Shown: positions 5,876 through 55,532 of the stretch, one piece after another
How positions within the stretch are numbered: the first letter of the stretch is position 1
Layout: each line of letters opens with the position of its first letter
Assembly (NCBI GenBank): GCA_964016885.1
Contig: OZ024740.1
Span: forward strand, 397,792,001-397,856,000
Origin: Eledone cirrhosa
Taxonomy: Eukaryota
Direction: 5' to 3'
DNA length: 64,000 nucleotides
Translations under genes and position numbers: made by a program
The notes under the pieces: model-generated
The model's database searches: none
Told to the model about the DNA's origin: nothing
Seen by the model: the letters and a program-made list of their open reading frames with translations, nothing else

Positions 5876-5887
5876 TGGTGTTCTGTT

Positions 5888-8800
5888 TGTGGTGGTGTTG
5901 TTGATGGTGGTTGTGGTGGTGGTGTTGGTGGTGGTTGTGGTGGTGGTGTTGGTGCTGGTTGTGGTGGTGGTGTTGGTGGTAGTTGTGGTGGTAGTGTTGG
6001 TGGTGGTTGTGGTGGTGGTGTTGGTGGTAGTTGTGGTGGTGGTGTTGGTGCTGGTTGTGATAGTGGTGTTGGTGGTAGTTGTGGTGGTAGTGTTGGTGGT
6101 GGTTGTGGTGGTGGTGTTGGTGGTAGTTGTGGTGGTGGTGTTGGTGCTGGTTGTGGTGGTGGTGTTGGTGGTGGTTGTGGTGGTGGTGGTGTTGGTGCTG
6201 GTTGTGGTGGTGGTGTTGGTGGTGGTTGTGGTGGTGGTGGTGGTGGTAGTTGTGGTGGTGGTGTTGGTGGTGGTTGTGGTGGTGGTGTTGGTGGTAGTTG
6301 TGGTGGTAGTGTTGGTGGTGGTTGTGGTGGTGGTGTTGGTGGTGGTTGTGGTGGTGGTGTTGGTGGTGGTTGTTGTGGTGGTGTTGGTGGTAGTTGTGGT
6401 GGTGGTGTTGGTGCTGGTTGTTGTAGTTGTGGTTTTGGTGTTGGTGTTGGCGGTGGTTGTGGTGGTGGTGTTGATGGTGGTTGTGGTGGTGGTGTTGGTG
6501 GTGGTTGTGGTGGTGGTGTTGGTGGTGGTTGTGGTGGTGGTGTTGGTGGTGGTTGTGGTGGTGGTGTTGGTGGTGGTTGTTGTGGTGGTGTTGGTGGTAG
6601 TTGTGGTGGTGGTGTTGGTGCTGGTTGTTGTAGTTGTGGTTTTGGTGTTGGTGTTGGCGGTGGTTGTGGTGGTGGTGTTGATGGTGGTTGTGGTGGTGGT
6701 GTTGGTGGTGGTTGTGGTGGTGGTGTTGGTGGTGGTTGTGGTGGTGGTGTTGGTGGTGGTTGTGGTGGTGGTGTTGGTGGTGGTTGTGGTGTTGGTGTTG
6801 GCGGTGGTTGTGGTGGTGGTGTTGATGGTGGTTGTGGTGGTGGTGTTGGTGGTGGTTGTGGTGGTGGTGTTGGTGGTGGTTGTGGTGTTGGTGGTGGTTG
6901 TTGTAGTTGTGGTTTTGGTGTTGGTGGTAGTTGTCGTGGTGGTGTTGGTGGTAGTTGTGGTGGTGGTGTTGGTGGTGGTTTTAGTGGTGTTGGTGGTGTT
7001 GTTGATGGTAGTTGTGGTGTTGGTGTTGGTTGTGGTGTTGGTGTTGGCGGTGGTTGTGGTGGTGGTGTTGGTGGTGGTTTTGGTGGTGGTGTTGGTGGTG
7101 GTTGTGGTGGTGGTGTTGGTGGTGGTTGTTGTGGTGGTGTTGGTGGTGGTTGTTGTAGTTGTGGTTTTGGTGTTGGTGGTAGTTGTCGTGGTGGTGTTGG
7201 TGGTAGTTGTGGTGGTGGTGTTGGTGGTGGTTTTAGTGGTGTTGGTGGTGTTGTTGATGGTAGTTGTGGTGGTGGTGTTGGTTGTGGTGTTGGTGTTGGC
7301 GGTGGTTGTGGTGGTGGTGTTGGTGGTAGTTGTGGTGGTGGTGTTGGTGGTGGTAGTTGTGGTGTTGGTGATGGTTGTGGTGGTTGTGGTGGTGTTGGTG
7401 GTAGTTGTGGTGGTGGTGTTGGTGGTAGTGGTGGTGTTGGTGGTGGTGTTGATGGTGGTTAGTGTTGGTGGTGGTGTTGGTGTTGGTGGTGGTGGTGGTG
7501 GCTGTGGTAGTTATGGTGTTGGTGGCGGTAGTGGTGGCGTTAGTGGTGGTAGTTGTGGTGGTGTTGGTGGTGGTGGTTGTGGTGTTGGTGGTGGTGGTGG
7601 TTGTGGTGGTGGTGGTAGTTGTAGTGGTGTTGGTGGTGGTGGTTGTGGTGTTGGTGGTGGTGGTGGTGGTAGTTGTGGTGGTGTTGGTGGTGGTAGTTGT
7701 TGTGGTGGTTGTGGTGTTGTGGTGGTTGTGGTGGTGTTGGTGGTGGTGGTTGTGGTGGTGGTGGTAGTTGTGGTGGTGTTGGTGGTGGTGGTTGTGGTGT
7801 TGGTGGTGGTTGTGGTGGTGGTGGTAGTTGTAGTGGTGTTGGTGGTGGTGGTTGTGGTGTTGGTGGTGGTGGTGGTTGTGGTGGTAGTTGTGGTGGTGTT
7901 GGTGGTGGTAGTTGTTGTGGTGGTTGTGGTGGTGTTGGTGGTTGTGGTGGTGTTGGTGGTGGTGGTTGTGGTGGTGGTGGTAGTTGTGGTGGTGTTGGTG
8001 GTGGTAGTTGTTGTGGTGGTGGTGGTGCTGTTGGTGGTGGTGGTTGTGGTGTTGGTGGGGGTAGTGGTGGTGGTGGTAGTTGTGGTGTTGGTGGTGGTGG
8101 TTGTGGTGGTGTTGGTGGTGGTGGTAGTGGTGGTGGTGTTGGTGGTGGTAGTGGTGGTTGTGGTTGTGGTGGTGTTGGTGGTGGTAGTTGTGGTGGTGTT
8201 GGTGGTGGTGGTTGTGGTGGTAGTGGTGGTGGTAGTTGTGGTGGTGTTGGTGGTGGTAGTTGTGGTGGTGTTGGTGGTGGTAGTGGTGGTGGTGTTGGTG
8301 GTGGTGGTTGTGGTGGTGTTGGTGGTGGTGTTGGTGGTGGTGGTTGTGGTGGTGTTGGTGGTGGTGTTGGTGGTGGTAGTTGTGGTGGTGTTGGTGGTGG
8401 TAGTTGTGGTGGTGTTGGTGGTGGTAGTTGGGGTGGTGTTGGTGGTGGTAGTGGTGGTGGTGTTGGTGGTGGTAGTTGTGGTGGTGTTGGTGGTGGTAGT
8501 TGTGGTGGTGTTGGTGGTGGTAGTTGTGGTGGTGTTGGTGGTGGTGGTTGTGGTGTTGGTGGGGGTAGTGGTGGTGGTGGTAGTTGTGGTGGTGTTGGTG
8601 GTGGTGTTGGTGGTGGTGTTGGTGGTGGTGTTGGTGGTGGTGGTTGTGGTGGTGTTGGTGGTGGTGGTTGTGGTGGTGTTGGTGGTGGTGGTTGTGGTGG
8701 TGTTGGTGGTGGTGTTGGTGGTGGTGTTGGTGGTGGTGGTTGTGGTGGTGTTGGTGGTGGTGGTTGTGGTGGTGTTGGTGGTGGTGTTGGTGGTGGTGGT

Positions 8801-10000
8801 TGTGGTGGTGTTGGTGGTGGTGGTTGTGGTGGTGTTGGTGGTGGTGGTTGTGGTGGTGTTGGTGGTGGTGTTGGTGGTGGTGTTGGTGGTGGTGTTGGTG
8901 GTGGTGGTTATGGTGGTGTTGGTGGTGGTGGTTGTGGTGGTGTTGGTGGTGGTGGTTGTGGTGGTGTTGGTGGTGGTGTTGGTGGTGGTGTTGGTGGTGG
9001 TGTTGGTGGTGGTGGTTGTGGTGGTGTTGGTGGTGGTGGTAGTTGTGGTGGTGGTGTTGGTGTTGGTGGTGGTGGTAGTTGTGGTGGTGTTGGTGGTGGT
9101 GGTGGTTGTGGTGGTGTTGGTGGTGGTGTTGGTGGTGGTGGTTGTGGTGGTGTTGGTGGTGGTAGTTGTGGTGGTGTTGGTGGTGGTAGTTGTGGTGGTG
9201 TGGGTGGTGGTGGTTGTGGTGGTAGTTGTGGTGGTGTTGGTGGTGGTGGTTGTGGTGGTAGTTGTGGTGGTGTTGGTGGTGGTGGTTGTGGTGGTGTTGG
9301 TGGTGGTGGTTGTGGTGGTGTTGGTGGTGGTGGTTGTGGTGGTAGTTGTGGTGGTGTTGGTGGTGGTTGTGGTGGTGTTGGTGGTGGTGGTTGTGGTGGT
9401 GGTTGCGGTGGTGTTGGTGGTGGTGGTTGTGGTGGTGTTGGTGGTGGTGGTTGTGGTGGTAGTTGTGGTGGTGTTGGTGGTGGTGGTTGTGGTGGTGTTG
9501 GTGGTGGTGGTTGTGGTGGTGGTTGTGGTGGTGTTGGTGGTGGTGGTTGTGGTGGTGTTGGTGGTGGTGGTTGTGGTGGTAGTTGTGGTGGTGTTGGTGG
9601 TGGTGGTTGTGGTGGTGTTGGTGGTGGTGGTTGTGGTGGTGGTTGTGGTGGTGTTGGTGGTGGTGGTTGTGGTGGTGTTGGTGGTGGTGGTTGTGGTGGT
9701 AGTTGTGGTGGTGTTGGTGGTGGTGGTTGTGATGGTGTTGGTGGTGGTGGTTGTGGTGGTGTTGGTGGTGGTGTTGGTGGTGGTAGTTGTGGTGGTGTTG
9801 GTGGTGGTGGTTGTGGTGGTGTCTGTGGTGGTGTTGGTGGTGGTGGTTGTGGTGGTGTTGGTGGTGGTGTTGGTGGTGGTGTTGGTGGTGGTGGTTGTGG
9901 TGGTGTTGGTGGTGGTAGTTGTGGTGGTGGTTGTGGTGGTAGTTGTGGTGGTGTTGGTGGTGGTAGTTGTGGTGGTGGTTGTGGTGGTAGTTGTGGTGGT
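5888..10000. repeat. 4.1 kb degenerate (GGT/TGT/GTT/AGT)n array with 21-24 nt and larger higher-order units
   Basis: Direct reading. Triplet phase is kept except for a shifted block at about 7460-7715. Confidence 0.95.
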
Positions 10001-10213
10001 GCCACAATTATCAACGCCATCCCAGGACAGTGGGGACGCCGGTGTATACCGCCAAAATCATATATTTGTAATTATACAACAATACAATTTAGTTTTTCTT
10101 TGTTGTTGTTGGTGGCGATGTTATTGTTGTTGTTGTAGGTGGTGGTGGTTGGGGGGGGCGTGTGTCCTGTACTTATTTTCAGCTACTATCGTTATTTTTT
10201 GTTGCTGGTGTTG

Positions 10214-16706: not shown

Positions 16707-16897
16707 AGATAGAAAGCATGAATGATTGAAAATCTAAGAACGAAAACAGGAGGGAGATACGGGGGGGGGGGGGTTGAAAAAATAATGTTGTCAGTATAAG
16801 ATAATTTTAATAAGAGAAGTTAATATGAAGCCGAAGGTAAGCGTAAGTAACAACAGTGGAATGGAAGGCAAGATTGAGATGACTTTTCTGTGACATT

Positions 16898-17388
16898 GCA
16901 GTATCGGTAGAGGGTCGGACGCCATGCTTTGACGCATAGACTAACGGCCCTTGCCATTCTGAGTTCAAATCCCGCCGAGGTTAACTTTGCCTTTCATCCT
17001 TATGGGGTCGATAAAATAAAGTACCAGTAATACACTGGGTAATTGCTGGCCTTGTGCCAAAAGTAGAAACAATTATTAATGCTGTTCATATGATGGTGAA
17101 TTGGCAGTATCGGTGGAGCGTCAGACACCATGCCTTGCAGCATAGAGTTACGGTCTTTACGGTCTGAGTTCAAATCCCGCCGAGGTTAGTTTTGCCTTTC
17201 ATCCTTACGCGATCGATAAAATAAAGTACCAGTAATACACTGGGTAATTGCTGGCCTTGTGCCAAAAGTAGAAACAATTATTAATGCTGTTCATATGATG
17301 GTGAATTGGCAGTATCGGTGGAGCGTCAGACACCATGCCTTGCAGCATAGAGTTACGGTCTTTACGGTCTGAGTTCAAATCCCGCCGA
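16898..17388 (+). mobile_element. Tandem 2.5 copies of SINE family A (about 206 nt unit including spacer)
   Basis: The identical linker aatgctgttcatatgatggtgaattggcagtatcgg occurs twice. Confidence 0.9.
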
Positions 17389-17700
17389 GCAAAATGCTTT
17401 AAAAAATCGGTTTTTCGCCTAATGCGGTCCCTGGGGCAAAAAATAAGAAAACCTTTTTGCTGAAAACGACATAAGTAATGCAAATTTTGAAGAAATCGCC
17501 TAGATTATTGTTCCGTTATGCCTTTAATGCATAAAATATGCGGTTTTTCGCCTAATGCGGTCCCTAGGGCATTGAAATTTGAAATATTTGTTGCTCAAAT
17601 CACTCACACGAGTGTAAAGTTTGAAAAAAATCGGTTGGGTGGTTCTCGAGTTTTAGGGAAACAGACAGACAGACAGACATTCTCCGTTTTATATATATAG
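17389..17700 (+). mobile_element. Helitron-like 3' end with (ACAG)n
   Basis: aagtttgaaaaaaatcggttgggtggttctcgagtt..acagacagacagacattctccgttttatatatatag, a layout typical of non-autonomous Helitron ends. Confidence 0.55.
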
Positions 17701-20272: not shown

Positions 20273-20380
<108 letters not shown>

Positions 20381-20446
20381 AGGTTTAGCAAATAATGAAA
20401 AAGTTTCAAAATAAATTTAAAAAAATTGACTTTACTTATTATAGTT

Positions 20447-20530
20447 ACCTTTACCGAATCGGTTTCGAATCTCAAAAATAAACGGAGACCATACGGCCTT
20501 CGTTGCAAAGAAAGATTCTCGTCAGAAGAT
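20447..20530 (-). ncRNA. Type I hammerhead ribozyme (inverted copy)
   Basis: AUCUU CUGACGA GAAUCU...AGAUUC GAAA CCG AUU CGG UA AAGGU. Confidence 0.8.
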
Positions 20531-21088
20531 TCTTTTTATTCGAAGAATATAAAATTCTTGAATTTAAATTACGAACTAGCGCTATCCAAAACTGTTCCCG
20601 AGATGAGAGTAAATGAAGTGGAATCAATTTTTTCAAGGGCCGAAGTAAAGATAGAGGCAGAGGGAGGTAGGTCAAACGGCCACCACTATCACTAGCAGCA
20701 GTCGGAACGACCAAATTTTTTTCTCAACATAGAGGAGAATAGTAATAATAGACCTGATTATATATGTTCTGGCTCGTTAATTTATTAACCTGGCATTGAA
20801 CCACATTGGCATATGGTTGGACAATACATGTGTCCCTTAGCGCTTTGTGCGTGTAGGAACACATATCCTATTATTACTATTCTTCTCTATGTTGAGAAAA
20901 AAATTTGGTCGTTCCGACTGCTGCTAGTGATAGTGGTGGCCGTTTGACCTACCTCCCTCTGCCTCTATCTTTACTTCGGCCCTTGAAAAAATTGATTCCA
21001 CTTCATTTACTCTCATCTCGGGAACAGTTTTGGATAGCGCTAGTTCGTAATTTAAATTCAAGAATTTTATATTCTTCGAATGAAAAGA

Positions 21089-21172
21089 ACCTTCTGACGA
21101 GAATCTTTCTTTGCAACGAAGGCCGTATGGTCTCCGTTTATTTTTGAGATTCGAAACCGATTCGGTAAAGGT
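21089..21172 (+). ncRNA. Type I hammerhead ribozyme
   Basis: Stem I ACCUU/AAGGU; core CUGACGA 21094-21100; stem II GAAUCU/AGAUUC; GAAA 21153-21156; stem III CCG/CGG; GUA site, predicted cut after 21167. Confidence 0.85.
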
Positions 21173-21360
21173 AACTATAGTAAGTAAAGTCAATTTTTTA
21201 AAATTTATTTTGAAACTTTTTCATTATTTGCTAAACCTGATTATATATGTTCTGGCTCGTTAATTTATTAACCTGCCATTGAACCACATTGGCATATGGT
21301 TGGACAATACATGTGTCCCTTAGCGCTTTGTGCGTGTAGGAACACATATCCTATTATTAT

Positions 21361-21430
<70 letters not shown>

Positions 21431-21519
21431 GTATCTATGTATATAAAAAAATCCAGAAGCAACAGGGGGTTGTGTGGTTACTGGATAAAGTGTATTTAGA
21501 AATAAGAGGAAAGCACAAA

Positions 21520-21579: not shown

Positions 21580-24500
21580 CTCCAGTCTTTTCACAAAGAC
21601 ACGATCACAACAAATACAACAACAACAACAACAAAAGAGGGAACTGCAACCCTATCCAATGTTGTAACCACAAATCCAATCAAAAACTGCTCTCTGAACA
21701 AAAAAAAAAAATCTTTATTTTTTAGCCGTGAACTTGGCAAAAGAGATAGAGAAAAACATTTTAGCCATCACCCAACACCATCCTTCCTGTCACTAACACA
21801 CAATCACAAAACAAGCCCCCTGCAATAGTCAAAACCAGCCACCACACTAGCCTCCACATTCTTACTCAATACACAAGGTATCAGCCCATCCATCAATGCA
21901 CAGAAATGGAAGGTCCAATTCACTGAGGATTGGGTTGGTAACCATCCATTTCACATCCCCTTCTTCATTCTTACTGAAACCCACCTTGACAACTCCCACT
22001 TGGAGGCCGAAGTAAGAGTGAGAAATTTCTCAACCATCCGTGCGGATCGTGTTGGCAGAAGGAAGGGTGGAACTGCTATTTTCTTGCATGATTCCTTTAC
22101 GGCAGATGGCAACACAACATTCTCTAATGGATACTGTGCGCAATAAAGCCAATGACCTGACATTAGTTGGGCTCTATAGGCCACCACAAACACCCATAAT
22201 CTGCTTCAAAGAATGCCTCAACAGTATTAAATGCTTTATTAAACAGTGCCATTCTAGCAACATACTTTTGATGGGAGACTTTAATCTACCCTGTGTCGAT
22301 TGGTCTACATGTAGTTTGAAACCAGGCTCCACAGCCTCAACCACTGACAAAGAGGCTGTCGAGTCACTTCTTGACTTTATGAATGAGTTTTTCTTGTCCC
22401 AACTTGTCCTTGCACCAACGAGGCATCAGAAGAACATTCTGGATCTAGTGTTTAGTAACCACACTAACACTATACATAATATTACAGTGGAAAACACCCT
22501 TCTCTCATACCATGACATGGTTCTTTGTAACCTGAGATTCCGCCAGCTGAAAGCTAATCCTAGGGTCCTCTCTCCAGCCCACCCATTTGATAACATGGAT
22601 CTCTACAATGCCAATTGGGATGCAATTATGAACGAACTATCACATGTCGACTGGTCTTTTACACACGCACACACTTCCACCAACATCAAAATATCTTGGC
22701 AGATCTTTGTAGACACTGTCACAAATATATGTACAAAACACACCCCACCAAAACCTGTGAACAAAACCAAGTGCAGTATCCCCCAAAACAAAAAAACAAT
22801 TATCAGAAAAATAAAAAGAACAAACAAAAAAATTTCAATGGCTATCACCCTGCTTGAGTAAAAAGAATATAACCTCCAGCAATGCATGATGACCATCATC
22901 AATAACCAGGGAATAGCTGAAGAGAGGTGGGCCATTGAGAAAATCAAACTCACCCCAAAATGTTCTTTTCATTTGCTAAAAAACACAAGGTCACCGTCTT
23001 TACTGTTGGCCCCCTAGTTGATGAAAATGGCACACTCCAGGACAATGCCAAAACCATTGGCGAGATACTGCAGAAACAATACTGCTCTGTTTTCAGCAAT
23101 CCTGATATGGCCGATCTGGGCTGTATCAGTGATGTTAACCCCCAACACACTATATCAGACATAACGTTTGGCGCTCCTGTTGTCTTAGCGGCAATAAACG
23201 AAATTAAACACAATTCAGCAGTAGGCCCTGACAGGTTCCCTGCTTGTGTCCTGAAGGTGTGTCGACACCAACTTGCATCTCCTCTTGCTAATCTGTGGAG
23301 GAACTCACTGGACACTGGCTATATTCCTGAAAACTTTCTGTCCCAGTCTGTTGTCCCAGTCTTCAAAAAGGGAAATAAGTCCCTTGCAGTGAGCTACCAC
23401 CGATCTCACTCACCTCTCATATTATCAAGGTATTTGAGAGGGTGGTGAGATCACGAATAACCCACTTTCTTGAAATCAACGACCTGCTAAACTCCAACCA
23501 ACATGGGTTCTGTAATGGAAGGGACTGCCTAACGCAGCTCCTGCATCACTTTGACAATGTTTTGAGAGCCTTGAGAGAGGGCTCCAACACTGATGTCATC
23601 TACCTTGATTTCAGCAAGGCCTTCGACAGGGTTGATCATAAGATTCTACTGAAAAAACTATCCAATGTTGGTGTCTCTGGAAGGTTACTACAGTGGATCA
23701 AATGTTTCCTGACAGGCAGAACCCAGCATGTTGTAGTCGAAGAAGTAAAATCAAGCCCTGCCAAAGTCAACAGTGGCGTCCCACAAGGCACTGCTTTGGG
23801 CCCACTTCTTTTCATCATCTACATTAATGACATTACTGACATCATCAAGCACATCAATATCAGAATCTTCGCAGATGATTCCAAACTCCAAAGGGTCATC
23901 AATGAGGTGGGTGACCGGACTTGCCTTCGGTCAGACCTACTAGCTGTTATCCAATGGGCAGAAATGAACAATATGCTGTTGAATGAGGATAAATTTGAAT
24001 TAATCCACTTTGGAAAAAAGGATGCCCTGAAACTACCATACTCTCTTCCTTCGGGTGAAACTCTAGTGGCATCCAATAACATCAGAGACCTGGGAGTAAT
24101 TATGGTGGATAACAACATAAGCTGGGTCACTCATATAAACAGCAAAGTTGATATGGCCAGCAGAATGTGTTCCTGGATTCTCAGAACCTTCCAGTCGAGA
24201 GATATCCACACTATTATCCTTTTCTTCTCCACTTTTGCCCGACCCCACCTTGAATACTGTTGTCCACTGTGGTCACCCCACACGAAACAAAGTATTATGA
24301 AAGTTGAAGCACCCCAAAGGTCAATTACAAAAAAGATAGATGGCATGACAGGCCTTGACTATTGGAATCGATTAGAAAAGCTCAAACTTTATTCTCTCCA
24401 ACGTCGCCGTGAGTGGTACATTATCTACATGATGTGGAAAATATTCCATCAGCTTTGCCCAAATGATGTTGGCATCACCTTTAGTGTACACCCAAGGCTT

Positions 24501-24841
24501 GGGCCCCGTGCTATCCGCCCGCAACAAAAATCTCACTCGCAACACATAACAACAACGCGGCACAATTATTTCACCTCAATTGACCCTGCACTCTTTAACA
24601 CTACACCAAGACACATCAAAGCAGAGACAGACCCCATCAAGTTCAAGAAGTCTTTGGATAAATTCCTTCAAGAAATCCCGGATAAGCCTCCTATACCCGG
24701 ATATGCCTCTGTAAACAATAACTCTCTGATCGAGTGGGTCATGCTGCCCAAACACTGATTTGTAAGACTTTGCCAGGTGGTGCTATTAAGTTAGACATGG
24801 CCTGGGCCAATACTGGCCGAAACCTATCAAAGTTATCAAAG

Positions 24842-32494: not shown

Positions 32495-32779
32495 TTCGAG
32501 AGTAACCAATCTTAAAGAAAGAGATGGAGATAGAAGAGGAGAGATTGGTGAATTAGTTAGAAGCCAAAGCGTAAAGGCATGTGCTCAATGTGCAATATGC
32601 AGTAGAAAGCAGCTAGGTGGCTGAGTTCATGCAGAAGTTAGGCGCGCAGAGCTGGAAATATTCATTAGTTAAGCAAAACAAGACCACACATTTCACAAGG
32701 AAGACATTATTAAAAGATTGTCAACATATTTTAGTTTGATGTAAGTAATGTAGAGAATAATAATAATAATATTAATAAT

Positions 32780-33163
32780 AATTGTTTCTACTTTGGGCAC
32801 AAGGCCAGCAATTACCCAGTGCATTATTGGTAATTTATTTTATCGACCCCGTAAGGATGAAAGCAAAGTCAACCTTGGCGGGATTTGAACTCAGATCGTA
32901 AAGGGACGTAACTATGCTGGAAAGCATGGCGTCCGACCCTCTACCGATACTGCCAATCCACCGCCTTAATAATATTTGTTTCTACTTTTTGGCACAAGGC
33001 CAGCAATTATCCCAGTGTATTACTGGTACTTTATTTTATCGACCCCGTAAGGATGCAAGGCAAAGTTAACCTCGGCGGGATTTGAACTCAGTTCGTAAAG
33101 GGACGTAACTGAGCTACAAAGCATGGCGTCCGACCCTCTACCGATACTGCCAATCCACCGCCC
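32780..33163 (-). mobile_element. Two tandem SINE family A copies inserted in the Penelope left arm
   Basis: Absent from the right arm, where only (ATT)n is present at about 37144-37172. Confidence 0.9.
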
Positions 33164-33180
33164 TAATAATAATAATGTCC

Positions 33181-33299: not shown

Positions 33300-36200
33300 T
33301 TCAAAGGAATATAAATTAAAATAAGGAGAGAATGTTACATAATGTAATGTTCCATATATTGGTATTTCACTATGGTGTCCTGAGTGTATCAATTGTCAGC
33401 CATAATCAAGCAGTATTCATCTGTCGAGGCTGCATTGTGTGAGATCTGCCTATGGGTAACAAGGTAGCCGCCAATGGACAAATTTACCTTACTAATTAGA
33501 GGGTGGTTTCAGGGGAAGTAACTCCTCGAGGGATTAGAAATTGTGGGTAGTTTATAGTTAAGTGCTAATTTTTAAATTTTTAATTGAGAGACAATGTAGG
33601 GGAGGTAACTTATAATTATCTAAGTTAGTTATAGCTATTTAACTTATTAGCTACAAGTAAAAATGGGGCTAGATGACTATGTTGGATCAAATATTCGGTT
33701 GGCGAAGGAATTAGCCCTTCGATGTTGACAGCTAATAGTTACCTCTGTTCTATCGTTATTCGGTAGAGGTCGTGATAGAGTTATGTAATATGCTTCGGTA
33801 ATACAGAGATCACAAGATTTTCTTCGTCCATTGAACGGTTGGGACCTAGCTGAGATATCCTATGTTAGTGAGAGTTCAATGTTGGTTAATTTAAGGTTTT
33901 TAATGAGCCTAGCTAGAGATGTCGAACATCTGTTGTTAGGGTCTCGGAAGGAAAAAGAGTGCGCGTTATAGCGTACCTTAAAAGGGTTAGAGGTAGACCC
34001 GATATAGGAGCTGGTATTAGAAGCAGTTTTAACCGTGCACCTATAGACTATGTTGGGTGTCAGGCAGTGTCCATTTAGTGGGCATGCATTAGGGTAACGG
34101 CAGATGCAGTTGCTTCTGCGGTTAGTGAGAGTAGGGTAGTTTAACCTAAGTTTAACCTAAGCGGTCAGTGTTAGAAGGATTAGATGGGGGAGGTGTGCTA
34201 CTAGAGTAAGTATTGGTGTAGTGGCGTGGTGTATTTGACAGGGGTGGTAATACCGCGGTGTGGGAGTTATACTGTCTTAGTTTATGATGGTTACTGAATG
34301 CGATGTGGCTAGCTAGCTTAGGTGTTGTGGAGAATGAGATTTTAATGTTATTTTTATTAAAGAGTTTGTAATATCTATGGTTGGGGGGCGGGGGATGTTT
34401 AGATAGGATAGAGAAGATGCGTTTAGGGATATTAGTGACTAGATTATATGAGAATGGGGGGTTAAGCCAGGTGATATTTCTAGGCCTATTCCTTCTAGGG
34501 GTTCTAGTGGAGTTGGTAGGGGCCTTCCTAGGGTTATTATTACCTGGGGATTTGTTATTTGTCATCCCATTTCTCATTCCTATTCTAGGGTTGATTTTTA
34601 GTTTGCCACTATTAAAGTTCCCTGTATAGGTGCTGTAACTGCTAAAATTCCGGCGAATCTGGCTATATGCTAAGGTATTTTTAGTTCTAGTGTTAAGTTT
34701 ATTATGGTGAATTGCTGTGTTATGGCATTTAGGTATGTAGTAAATGGATTGTTCATAACCAGATTCAGAAAGAGCCTTATTATAATATGGTGCATGGTTT
34801 ATAAATATCTCCTCATTTGCTGATAGCATGGAGATCCTATACGAGATAGATTTGATTACTACTCTGATGTCTGCCGGTGGGTGGTTAGAGTGTAGGCTAA
34901 TATATGTGAGTATTTCACCTGTTTATGGTAAGGGTAATATAGGTTATTGTTAAGATCCAGGGTGACGTCTAGGAAGTTTACTACTTAATGGTTCGGCTCG
35001 ATGGTGATAGAGAGACCGTTATTTTTAAAGAATCTATGTAATTGTTTTTTGAGCAAATCAATGCCCCGATTAGTGCAATTGTGGACTACAAATAGGGCGT
35101 CGTCCCTGTATATTCCGCCTTGCAAGGGTTGGATTTCGTCTCTGATGTTATGTAATAGGTAAATTCCAACTAAATTGCTGATTTGCGCAGAGTCACTTGA
35201 GCCCATCGTGATGTCAAAGTTGTCTGTTCTGTCTTTTCTAGTCCAGAGTGTTCCGTTGAATTCAATGATGGTCTGCCTAGCCATAAGTATGATGTCAATC
35301 TCATTATTGGTTATGTCCGAGTTGGTGCTGGCTAGGGTTAGTGCTTTGTTGAGCAGTTCCGGGGTTATTGAAGCGTAATAGCTGTCGATGTCAAATTGGA
35401 TGAACCTCATAGATTGCTTGGACCATAGATCGGAGAACCATCTAATGACTTGGCCGGTGTTGGACCACAACTTGTAGGTGATATCATCCCGTAGTCCAGG
35501 GATGATCCTATCAAGGATGTTCTTACTGATACGACCCAGGTCGGATGTGGTTGGGCTTATAAGTCTAATAGATGGGTTCTCTATAAAGTTTGGCTTATGA
35601 TACTTGAGAGAGAACCTTTGGGTTGTTGGTACATAAGGGTGGGTAAATCTATCCAGATGCAAGTCCTTAACCAAAGCCTGCGCTTTTCGGTTAAGTACGT
35701 TTACACTGGAGGGTATAGTTTTTTTTATAGTTTTTATTAAGTTCCTTAAGAATGAATGAGTTGTAAGTTTCAGGAGTCATGGTGTATAGATTTTTAGTTT
35801 TGTCAGACATAACATGTAAGAGGTGGCTATCTTTAAATTTGTTTATAGTTGTTGCTAATTTAGTGAGGAGATTATTCTTGTGTCTATAATGCTTTTTGAA
35901 TTTAATGCTCCTGACGAAGTTGAATAGATCTTTCTCAAAAGGGTCCAGCAGGATGTTAGAAATACCTTAGCATATAGCCAGATTCGCCGGAATTTTAGCA
36001 GTTACAGCACCTATACAGGGAACTTTAATGGTGGCAGCGGCCTGCTCCCCACTCCAAGTAGCAAGCTAAAAATCAACCCTAGAATAGGAATGAGAAATGG
36101 GATGACAAATAACAAATCCCCAGGTAATAATAACCCTAAGAAGGCCCCTACCAACCCCACTAGAACCCCTAGAATAAATAGGCCTAGAAATATCACCTGG

Positions 36201-53412: not shown

Positions 53413-55532
53413 AGTGTAATTAGAGTGTGTAACTAATGAAGAATTACACACTCTAATTACACTTAGGTGGATCTTTGCATATCTACACTATTAGATTCAG
53501 TTTCCTTTCTTCCTTAGGTTATCCAAATATTTTCACTCTTGTTAAACATACATAGTACCGGAGATAGTGTGGTATCTGTCAGGGTTGACGAAGTAGAGGT
53601 TTCCAGTTTTGTCCGAGTGCACCATGATGTCGTTGGTGTTTTCATACTCGGTTATTTTGCTACGGAGTTGTTGTAGGAATCTGTTGTGTCTGGGTTTGAA
53701 TTTAATGCTCTTGACCAGGTGGAAAAAGTCGTTCTCGAAGGGTGAGAGCATAGGGTTCGGAGGGGGAGATTTGTAGGTATTGAATCCGAATCTCTCCTTG
53801 GTGTCGAAGTCCTGATTGTTGCGGTATCTATCGTAGAAAAAAGTTCTCCATCTTAGTCTTTTCGCAAAAAGGTCGATTTTTTTAACCTGGTTAAAAACAT
53901 CTCCCTCCGCATATCTCGCTAGTCCGCTAATGAGCAGATATTCGACGAACACGCGCCTCATTACAACCAGGCTCTCAAGCGGAGTGGCTTCCGGGAGGAA
54001 ATATCCTTTTATCCAGCTTCCCTTAGCGGAACCAGTAGGCGACACCGCCGCTCACGCAACGTAACGTGGTTCAATCCTCCCCATAATGCCGAGGTGGCAA
54101 CACCTATCGGAAAAATCTTCTTTAGACTCCTCGAAAAACACTTCCCACTACAACACCGCTACCACAACATAATCAATAAAAACACCATCAAACTCTCCTA
54201 CAGCACCACACCTAACTTCGCACAAAACATCGTCTCCTCAAACAACAAAAAACTCAACCCCTATGGAAGAAATAACCTAGACATCAGTAGAGAGCCGACC
54301 AGGAGGTGTAACTGCCCTGATAGATCTACGTGCCCCCTCAACAACAGATGCAGAGAACGTAACGTGATCTACCAGTTCAACGTGAGGACGGACACCTCCA
54401 ACAAAGCTTATATAGGATTAACCGCGTGTGACTTCAAGACCCGGCTCTACCAATACCGTCATACTTTCCGAAACCCGGTCCGGCGACATGCCACTACACT
54501 TTCGGGCCACATCTGGGACCTCCAAGATAATGATATAACCTACAATCTCACTTGGAGCTTACTTTCCAGAGCTAACTCTTACACGGGAGGACGCCGTCCG
54601 TGTAACTTATGCTCGGAGGAAACATTACAAATGCTGTTTTCGAAGGACCAACTCCTAAACAAGAAAGACGAACTAGTAACCGCATGCAAACACAGATTGC
54701 GTAGGACTTACCTCGCCCTCAAACCCCATAACGACCCGGGTGGGTAGACAAGGGCTGACCCCCCAACTTGCCGAATAAGTTAGAGGAAACCCCAGCTTAC
54801 ATAGGTAGTTGTATCTCTTTTCTTTTCCTCTTTGTCTTCTTCTTCCCTCTGTCTCATCCTATCACTTCCTTCCACCCACTATTTTCTTCCTCGTCTGCTT
54901 TTCCCCTTTCGCCTACCCCGATGCACCCCATCGGGCCTCTGTAGCATCAGTTCCCCCACCCCTGTAATTTTAAGATAGATTTAGCCTAATACGTTTTACC
55001 AACTACTTATAGCAGAGGAGTTAAACCCCTTTAATTTTGTATCAGTTTTGTAATTTCTACTCTCAACTTTCTATTCTCAACCTATTAACCTGTAATTGTA
55101 AGATAGCATTGTGATTTTTTTTATTCATTTCTCACTATCTAACTTTATATATTTTTTTTATTTCTTTCTATTATCTTTTATTGTCTCCTACTCTCATTCG
55201 ATTTACCTATTCTATAACCTCCCTCCTCCACTTCATACACTATCCTTAGATTCTGCTGTATACATATCACTTTCAACGCCTAACCGCTCCACTCACTCCC
55301 CTATTGTTCTACAGGCAAGTTCAGCCACCCCTACCTCCCACCAAATGCCATGATAGACTTATTTGTGTTTACAACAAATTTTAACCAATTCTCTTGACAA
55401 CTACAATCTTCCCATATAAGGAAGTACCCCCTTGACAAGTTCGGTTATTTATTCACCAGGCTAAAAATTCTAATTTAGTTCAGAAATAGCCGTCGAAACG
55501 GCTTGAGCTCTGCCGTCGGGGTTATACTGTTT

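What the first reader, a model, noticed from the sequence alone, without database searches (positions are those of the whole stretch)
20381..21360. 483 nt hammerhead unit present as 1.25 tandem copies plus an inverted copy: intact ribozymes on both strands
Seen: the layout is A'(20381-20751)-B-A(20868-21238)-B with few differences, so it is recent. Both hammerheads keep their cores, and the one stem I difference (ACCUU vs AUCUU) leaves a G-U pair. Transcription in either direction would meet a ribozyme and could also form about 370 bp of dsRNA. Inference: rolling reverse transcription of a circular RNA followed by Penelope-style inversion.
Basis: partly seen in the sequence, partly recalled or inferred. 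Interest (0 to 1): 0.72.

Follow-up and report, generated by a model that had tools for sequence, protein, structure and literature searches.

The report
Two-armed retrozyme with Penelope insertion footprint
This is one of thousands of copies of a 483-base non-coding repeat with a hammerhead-ribozyme fold that sits in TA microsatellites, often as two back-to-back arms ending at two different fixed points, a footprint it shares with a protein-coding Penelope-like retrotransposon of the same genome, whose kind of enzyme likely copies it.

Summary
Observation confirmed: inverted arm 20375-20751 plus direct arm 20752-21357 (1.25 units of 483 nt), a type I hammerhead on each strand, TA repeats on both sides. 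It is not unique: at least 2,577 end-motif hits genome-wide, subfamilies 70-100% alike, compensatory changes in the hammerhead, no attached ORF found. It files as a non-LTR retrozyme (non-autonomous Penelope-like element). Arms end at two fixed sites 113 nt apart. All 78 simple inverted insertions are head-to-head. Of 59 with both ends scorable, 55 pair one end of each kind, 4 pair two short ends and none pairs two long ends. An RT/GIY-YIG-coding family here does the same (18 of 18). The inversion is therefore likely made during insertion, by priming on both cut strands, not afterwards. One insertion has arms from two subfamilies. A circular template is compatible but unproven, and the partner enzyme was not found. 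'Ribozymes on both strands' is a by-product: read-through RNA is predicted to bury both in dsRNA. Inverted copy, one-sided tail and opposite-strand hammerheads are published Penelope features. The scan noted this footprint before on other DNA, in this genome and others.

The parts
20280..20374 (.). left half of the (TA)n target microsatellite
   Evidence: TRF TA x49 at 20280-20377; sequence
20375..20751 (-). inverted arm, 5'-truncated (unit positions 107-483), ending at the short end site E1
   Evidence: L087; L001
20447..20530 (-). type I hammerhead of the inverted arm; G-U in stem I; predicted cut after 20452; weaker fold (stem I probability 0.21-0.29)
20751..20752 (.). head-to-head junction of the 5' ends of the two arms
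20752..21357 (+). direct arm: last 10 nt of a unit, one full 483-nt unit (20762-21244), then the tail; ends at the long end site E2
20762..20874 (+). internal copy of the 113-nt tail; its first 60 nt are among the best conserved stretches of the unit and hold a hairpin motif shared with sister repeat families (candidate RT recognition site, inferred)
21089..21172 (+). type I hammerhead: stem I 21089-93/21168-72, core 21094-21100 and 21153-56, long stem II with inner hairpin, 4-bp stem III; predicted cut after 21167
21244..21244 (+). position of end site E1 in the unit (read through in this arm)
   Evidence: 92 of 112 single-arm insertions end here (sample enriched for E1)
21245..21357 (+). terminal 113-nt tail (E1 to E2), present on this arm only
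21358..21445 (.). right half of the (TA)n target microsatellite
   Evidence: TRF 21364-21445; sequence

Best explanation
This is one copy of a non-coding, hammerhead-bearing 483-nt tandem repeat family (a non-LTR retrozyme) that was likely inserted by a Penelope-like RT/GIY-YIG enzyme acting in trans. Shown: family size, TA targets, two fixed 3' ends, head-to-head arms, one end of each kind per inverted insertion, covariation in the hammerhead. Inferred: the enzyme nicks both strands of a (TA)n site; one nick primes reverse transcription at E1 and the other at E2, 113 nt downstream on the RNA; each cDNA runs for a variable distance, through unit boundaries and usually through the ribozyme site; the two 5' ends are then joined. 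The template is inferred to be an RNA continuous across the cut site, either a ligated monomer circle (about 50%) or an uncut tandem transcript (about 50%). The two arms usually come from the same subfamily but at least once from two, so two RNA molecules can probably serve one event. This copy is probably a dead end for circle production.
For: Copy number: 187 + 2,390 hits of two E1 motifs, 785 hits of an intact-core pattern, controls 0. 194 of 209 scored 3' ends are followed by TA repeat. Inverted insertions: first set 55, of which 39 E1+E2, 4 E1+E1, 0 E2+E2, 12 with an unscorable end; binomial p = 2e-9 on 39 of 42 after dropping one of a duplicated pair; second set 23, of which 16 E1+E2, 0 same-kind pairs, 7 unscorable. 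None tail-to-tail. Positive control: an ORF-coding family (L191, 1154 aa; BLASTP E = 7e-16 to the L062 ORF, which hits Pfam RVT_1 and GIY-YIG) shows one tailed and one untailed arm in 18 of 18 insertions with both ends scored. Published: inverted 5'-truncated copy with a tail at one end (PMC8557442, PMC3846280); tail = distance between two RT start sites, both strands cut and extended in vitro, protein predicted to be a dimer (PMC11167929). Hammerhead: 89.7% of cells paired, 7 pairs with changes on both sides, slid controls 23-56% paired; both core motifs intact in 207 of 245 copies. Units alike at insertion: discordant sites show no order bias (255 vs 257), and private alleles are in only some units 151 times against 8 in all. 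Two-subfamily arms at L237 (23 of 175 sites differ).
Against: No autonomous element sharing the unit's sequence was found, so the partner is inferred from the footprint only. No RNA evidence. No target-site duplication can be read in (TA)n. 19 of 78 inverted insertions had an unscorable end. Samples were anchored on motifs, so end frequencies in single-arm copies are biased, and 11 of the 18 control insertions were found with a query that included the inverted tail. In longer contexts the equilibrium fold disfavours the hammerhead (stem I probability about 0.01 in 20752-21360). Covariation counts come from related subfamilies and count sequences, not events. The L191 ORF itself hit no Pfam family at E <= 0.1. 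The known tail is 30-40 bp, not 113.
Confidence: 0.78

Rival explanations
1. One reading: one reverse transcriptase rolls round a monomer circle, and the inverted arm is made afterwards by fold-back or a later inversion.
For: 156 of 226 arms cross the cut site; arrays of near-identical units up to 10 long (L121: 1 difference in 4,655 compared sites); the unit has stayed about 483-488 nt through 30% divergence. Circles are shown for coral, mussel and axolotl retrozymes (PMC7229834).
Against: Fold-back copying of the first arm cannot give an inverted arm that carries sequence absent from its partner or ends at the other fixed site; the 5' breakpoints of the two arms differ and vary; L237 has arms of two subfamilies. 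The circle part remains open; the 'later inversion' part does not fit.
Confidence: 0.12
2. These are ordinary 5'-truncated ends (pseudo-LTRs) of an autonomous Penelope-like element whose ORF was not sampled, not an independent retrozyme.
For: Same footprint as ORF-coding families; Penelope insertions are mostly truncated (PMC8557442). A weak look of a decayed endonuclease C-terminus in one reading frame (by eye, from recall) was not confirmed.
Against: Copies long enough continue into another unit, not into an ORF; subfamilies at 70-80% identity keep the same non-coding unit; the two frames tested hit no Pfam family and the protein search returned only the repeat itself in its 150 scored matches.
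Confidence: 0.06
3. The locus was kept as a bidirectional ribozyme or dsRNA regulatory element of the host.
For: A read-through RNA would form a very stable hairpin (about -710 kcal/mol).
Against: It is one of many similar insertions; the arms have drifted like other copies; the ORFs listed in 17000-64000 are retroelement-like or simple repeats by inspection (exons not searched); the hairpin would silence both ribozymes.
Confidence: 0.04

Closest known systems
Metazoan non-LTR retrozymes (Cervera & de la Pena 2020, PMC7229834; Li, Clavereau & Pollet 2026, bioRxiv 10.64898/2026.07.22.740005)
   Same: Short non-coding tandem unit, one type I hammerhead per unit, thousands of dispersed monomers to multimers, co-occurring with Penelope-like elements.
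   Different: Unit of 483 nt is above the 170-400 nt of the invertebrate circles reported but within the 51-972 bp of the 2026 survey. The parts read describe no fixed 3' ends, tails, TA targeting or head-to-head arms. Here no pLTR homology to an autonomous element was found, whereas 24 of 57 Xenopus families matched known TEs.
EN+ Penelope-like elements (PMC8557442, PMC3846280, PMC4209133, PMC11167929)
   Same: Partial tandem plus inverted 5'-truncated copy, head-to-head, tail on one end only, AT-rich or (TA)n targets, type I hammerheads, opposite-strand hammerhead pairs 100-700 bp apart.
   Different: No ORF; tail 113 nt against 30-40 bp; hammerhead has a full 4-bp stem III rather than the minimal form; both end sites are AT-rich and merge into the target, whereas the Anolis element starts at RNA sites not homologous to the cut DNA.
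L1 twin priming
   Same: Two primers from the two target strands give a 5' inversion.
   Different: Both start points are fixed sites, the arms overlap in sequence by hundreds of bases, and the 5' end of one arm is not tied to the start of the other.

Membership tests
non-LTR retrozyme | short tandem units, each with a type I hammerhead | tested here: met
   483-485 nt units in arrays up to 10; both core motifs intact in 207 of 245 copies; covariation. This locus has 1.25 units with one hammerhead per strand.
non-LTR retrozyme | no protein coding, no LTR/PBS/PPT | tested here: met
   Longest open frames 83 and 98 aa, no Pfam hit; no attached ORF in the 68 loci scanned for ORFs. PBS/PPT not searched separately.
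non-LTR retrozyme | many dispersed genomic copies | tested here: met
   at least 2,577 end-motif hits
non-LTR retrozyme | self-cleavage of the transcript | not testable with these tools
   Isolated + hammerhead is the minimum-energy fold; a weak excess of 5' ends near the cut site; no assay.
non-LTR retrozyme | accumulates as monomer circular RNA | not testable with these tools
   only contigs of runs not on record as RNA were available
Penelope-like insertion footprint | inverted 5'-truncated copy, head-to-head, tail at one end only | tested here: met
   78 of 78 head-to-head; 55 of 59 scorable pairs have one tailed arm
Penelope-like insertion footprint | tail of 30-40 bp | tested here: not met
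   113 nt; about 58 nt in the ORF-coding L191 family
autonomous Penelope-like element | RT + GIY-YIG ORF between pseudo-LTRs | tested here: not met
   no ORF in or attached to sampled copies
non-autonomous derivative of a named PLE family | sequence shared with the pLTR of an autonomous element in the genome | tested here: inconclusive
   none in 50 GIY-YIG loci, 14 loci of the L191 family, 20 ORF 3' flanks or a profile search of 340 loci; only a small part of the genome's PLE families was sampled

The most novel reading that the evidence does not exclude
A Penelope RT/endonuclease dimer inserts asymmetrically: each subunit holds its own RNA, one is obliged to start at the near site and the other at the far site, and a clan of ORF-less retrozyme circles hijacks it through a shared hairpin just behind the near site. 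The 113-nt tail and the two-subfamily insertion L237 make this readable from the genome and testable in vitro.
Probability: 0.3. Interest if true: 0.68.

Novelty: new member of a known kind. Interest (0 to 1): 0.42.

Why it matters
Two questions are open in the papers read: which enzyme mobilises animal retrozymes (PLEs proposed; PMC7761336 notes no conserved motif that points to the partner), and how Penelope's inverted copy and one-sided tail arise (PMC8557442, PMC11167929). This family gives a counted footprint for both: a near-strict pairing of unlike ends shared with a coding PLE family, an unusually long tail, a conserved hairpin shared by sister repeats, and one insertion with arms from two subfamilies. 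The locus itself is ordinary, and the scan has already noted the same footprint in other families, so the added value is modest.

Tried and rejected
Rfam: 0 matches in the window. Partner search: GIY-YIG family search and 50 loci, the unit's 83-aa frame as protein query, the abundant L191 family, local alignment to 20 ORF 3' flanks with shuffled controls (the one high score, L010, is a separate unit copy lying downstream past TA repeat), 40 further loci picked on tail or ribozyme motifs, profile search, the L063 hit (a sister repeat, separate from the neighbouring Neptune-like ORF): no partner. RNA: no RNA holder listed; contigs only. L1-type twin priming on one linear RNA with the tailed arm stopping at E1: rejected as the rule, since those 5' ends are scattered, although this locus happens to fit. 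Pile-up of 5' ends at the ribozyme cut (true cut between unit positions 406/407; the scripts marked it one base off): 16 observed against 7.2 expected in 403-416 (p = 0.003), 12 against 5.7 in the E1-anchored subset (p = 0.014), but a 21-nt window at 212-232 is enriched as much and TA microhomology confounds it: weak hint only. The first structure string was mis-indexed (disregard) and corrected. Tail fold is not clearly better than shuffles (z = -1.5). Sequence look-up in earlier findings: nothing. Supplements of the papers were not read and may describe similar families. The host taxon was not tested; a cephalopod was guessed from recall for paper searches only.

Full report
Observation. The sequence and repeat search show an inverted pair and a direct repeat at spacing 483 between two TA tracts. 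Base by base, 20381-20751 and 20868-21238 differ at 5 of 371 positions, and the two copies of segment B at 1 position up to 21357. A geometry scan found type I hammerheads at +21094 and -20525 among 4 hits in the window, and the ACCUU/AUCUU change is as described. Rfam reported nothing. I define the unit as window 20762-21244. The predicted cut is after 21167 (unit position 406).

It is a large family. The unit gave 2,678 candidates in G000, with the best at 97-99% identity. Exact patterns gave 307 hits for a ribozyme 25-mer, 785 for an intact-core pattern, 187 and 2,390 for two end motifs and 1,254 for the tail start; reversed controls gave 0. Older subfamilies at 70-85% identity keep the same unit. 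The youngest has arrays of up to 10 near-identical units. Pieces of the unit are in contigs of 4 of 4 public runs laid, none spanning this insertion.

The hammerhead is conserved as a structure. Both core motifs are intact in 207 of 245 copies, and core positions are 98.5-99.6% conserved against 93% for stem II. On 31 diverse copies the correct structure has 89.7% of cells paired and 7 pairs with changes on both sides, in stems I and II and the inner hairpin; slid controls have 23-56% paired. These counts reflect a few subfamily-level events. The isolated + ribozyme is its own minimum-energy fold. The - copy is weaker (stem I probability 0.21-0.29), and in longer contexts stem I falls to about 0.01 or less. 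Activity is untested.

Two fixed ends. Mapping copies shows 3' ends at unit position 483 (E1) or 113 of the next unit (E2), so the tail is 113 nt; 194 of 209 such ends run into TA repeat. Of 174 distinct elements (1 cut by a locus edge), 112 are single arms (92 E1, 13 E2, 7 other; sample enriched for E1), 55 are simple inversions and 6 are complex. Among the 55: 39 E1+E2, 4 E1+E1 (two are one duplicated locus), 0 E2+E2, 12 unscorable; p = 2e-9 against independent ends. A second set of 51 elements, mostly picked on the tail motif, held 23 inversions: 16 E1+E2, none alike, 7 unscorable. All 78 are head-to-head. The window copy is E1 on the left and E2 on the right.

The footprint is Penelope's. 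PMC8557442 (passages) and PMC3846280 (passages) describe partial tandems with an inverted 5'-truncated copy, mostly head-to-head, and a 30-40 bp tail often at one end only. PMC4209133 (part 1 of 4) reports opposite-strand hammerhead pairs 100-700 bp apart. PMC11167929 (parts 1-2 of 4) shows in vitro that a PLE protein cuts and extends both strands, starts at two internal RNA sites that bound the tail, does not need ribozyme cleavage, and is predicted to be a dimer. Within this genome an abundant coding family (80,576 candidates; 1154-aa ORF at L191, BLASTP E = 7e-16 to an RVT_1/GIY-YIG ORF; no Pfam hit of its own) has a tail of about 58 nt and unlike ends in 18 of 18 insertions with both ends scored among 34 loci examined (L151/L153 and L193/L194 counted once each, L204 left out as ambiguous, 11 found with a query containing the inverted tail).

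No partner found. The unit shares no sequence with 50 GIY-YIG loci, the L191 family or 20 ORF 3' flanks, and no ORF is attached in 68 loci scanned. A profile of the end-plus-tail region found only sister non-coding hammerhead repeats, at least four families, that share a hairpin motif at the tail start (the best of these profile hits is E = 0.001, the others weak). The first 60 nt of the tail are 97-98% conserved across subfamilies. I infer this is the enzyme's recognition site.

Template. 156 of 226 arms cross the cut site, so most templates were continuous there. Units within an insertion were alike at insertion: pooled divergence within arms is 2.7% and between arms 2.8% (in the 29 insertions with both measures 1.4% and 2.6%), discordant sites have no order bias (255 against 257), and private alleles are rarely shared by all units (8 against 151). 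This fits a monomer circle but also young homogeneous tandem transcripts. A small excess of 5' ends near the cut is a weak hint of cleaved RNA. In 31 of 40 inversions the partner arm is within the closest 10% of sampled arms. L237 is the exception: a clean head-to-head E1+E2 insertion whose arms differ at 23 of 175 sites and sit with different subfamilies. This suggests two RNAs in one event; later gene conversion is the alternative.

The both-strands idea. A read-through RNA of 20381-21360 folds into a hairpin of about -710 kcal/mol in either direction, with 99-100% of the ribozyme's bases paired and stem I probability 0.0. The antisense arm is made first in both directions, so the ribozymes are predicted to be silenced. 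With one ribozyme per strand the locus cannot yield a monomer. Whether it is transcribed is unknown.

Comparison and novelty. The family meets the testable criteria of non-LTR retrozymes (PMC7229834, passages and parts 3-4 of 6; bioRxiv 10.64898/2026.07.22.740005, parts 1-3 of 5, which already argues that they are non-autonomous PLE derivatives; PMC7761336, passages). Five paper searches listed no paper that, in the parts read, counts unlike-end pairing or describes a tail of about 110 nt; most subscription papers and all supplements were unseen. PMC13282606 (passages) was read only for context. Earlier notes of this scan describe the same footprint in other repeat families of this genome and of other genomes. 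I reached the reading before seeing them, and they are not independent support. Two of them propose one RNA copied from both ends; L237 argues that two RNAs are at least sometimes used.

Verdict. Real, a new member of a known kind. The counted end rule, the long tail and the chimeric insertion are useful for testing the mechanism. Interest 0.42.

Noticed in passing
L237 1499-2039 (G000:C1:22,639,165): Head-to-head E1+E2 insertion whose two arms belong to different subfamilies (23 of 175 sites differ).
   Followed up: partly
L121 1528-7338 (G000:C1:149.205-149.211 Mb); L126, L127, L128: Youngest 485-nt subfamily: arrays of 3-10 units almost without differences within or between loci; probably active very recently.
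   Followed up: partly
L063 5810-6719; L340, L314, L326, L336; L290, L318; L298, L316: At least four sister non-coding hammerhead repeat families (one with a 459-nt unit) share the tail-start hairpin motif, TA targets and inverted layouts.
   Followed up: partly
L191 2865-6326 (G000:C4:126.486-126.489 Mb): Very abundant young Penelope-like family with open frames up to 1154 aa, its own hammerhead and a tail of about 58 nt; no Pfam hit at E <= 0.1.
   Followed up: partly
L062/L063 about 5400-5600 of L063: Neptune-like family whose 3' repeat has a hammerhead-like motif with a U-for-C core variant and a 3' half resembling this unit's; judged by eye.
   Followed up: no
L122, L123 (G000:C3:88.917-88.937 Mb): Unit copies embedded in another tandem repeat and amplified with it as a higher-order array; left out of the unit-concordance test.
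   Followed up: no
window 21829-24758: Broken LINE-like element (endonuclease and RT frames by inspection) right of the insertion.
   Followed up: no
window 5887-10001: 4.1-kb array of a 24-nt G/T-rich unit with extreme strand skew (171 copies).
   Followed up: no
window 51781 (-), 62549 (+), 34152-35776 (-), 53923-54747 (+): Two other hammerhead-like motifs and two Penelope-like ORF fragments (by inspection) elsewhere in the window.
   Followed up: no
window 16890-17389 and 32772-33173: Two related arrays of about 200-nt units (2.1-2.4 copies), SINE-like by eye.
   Followed up: no
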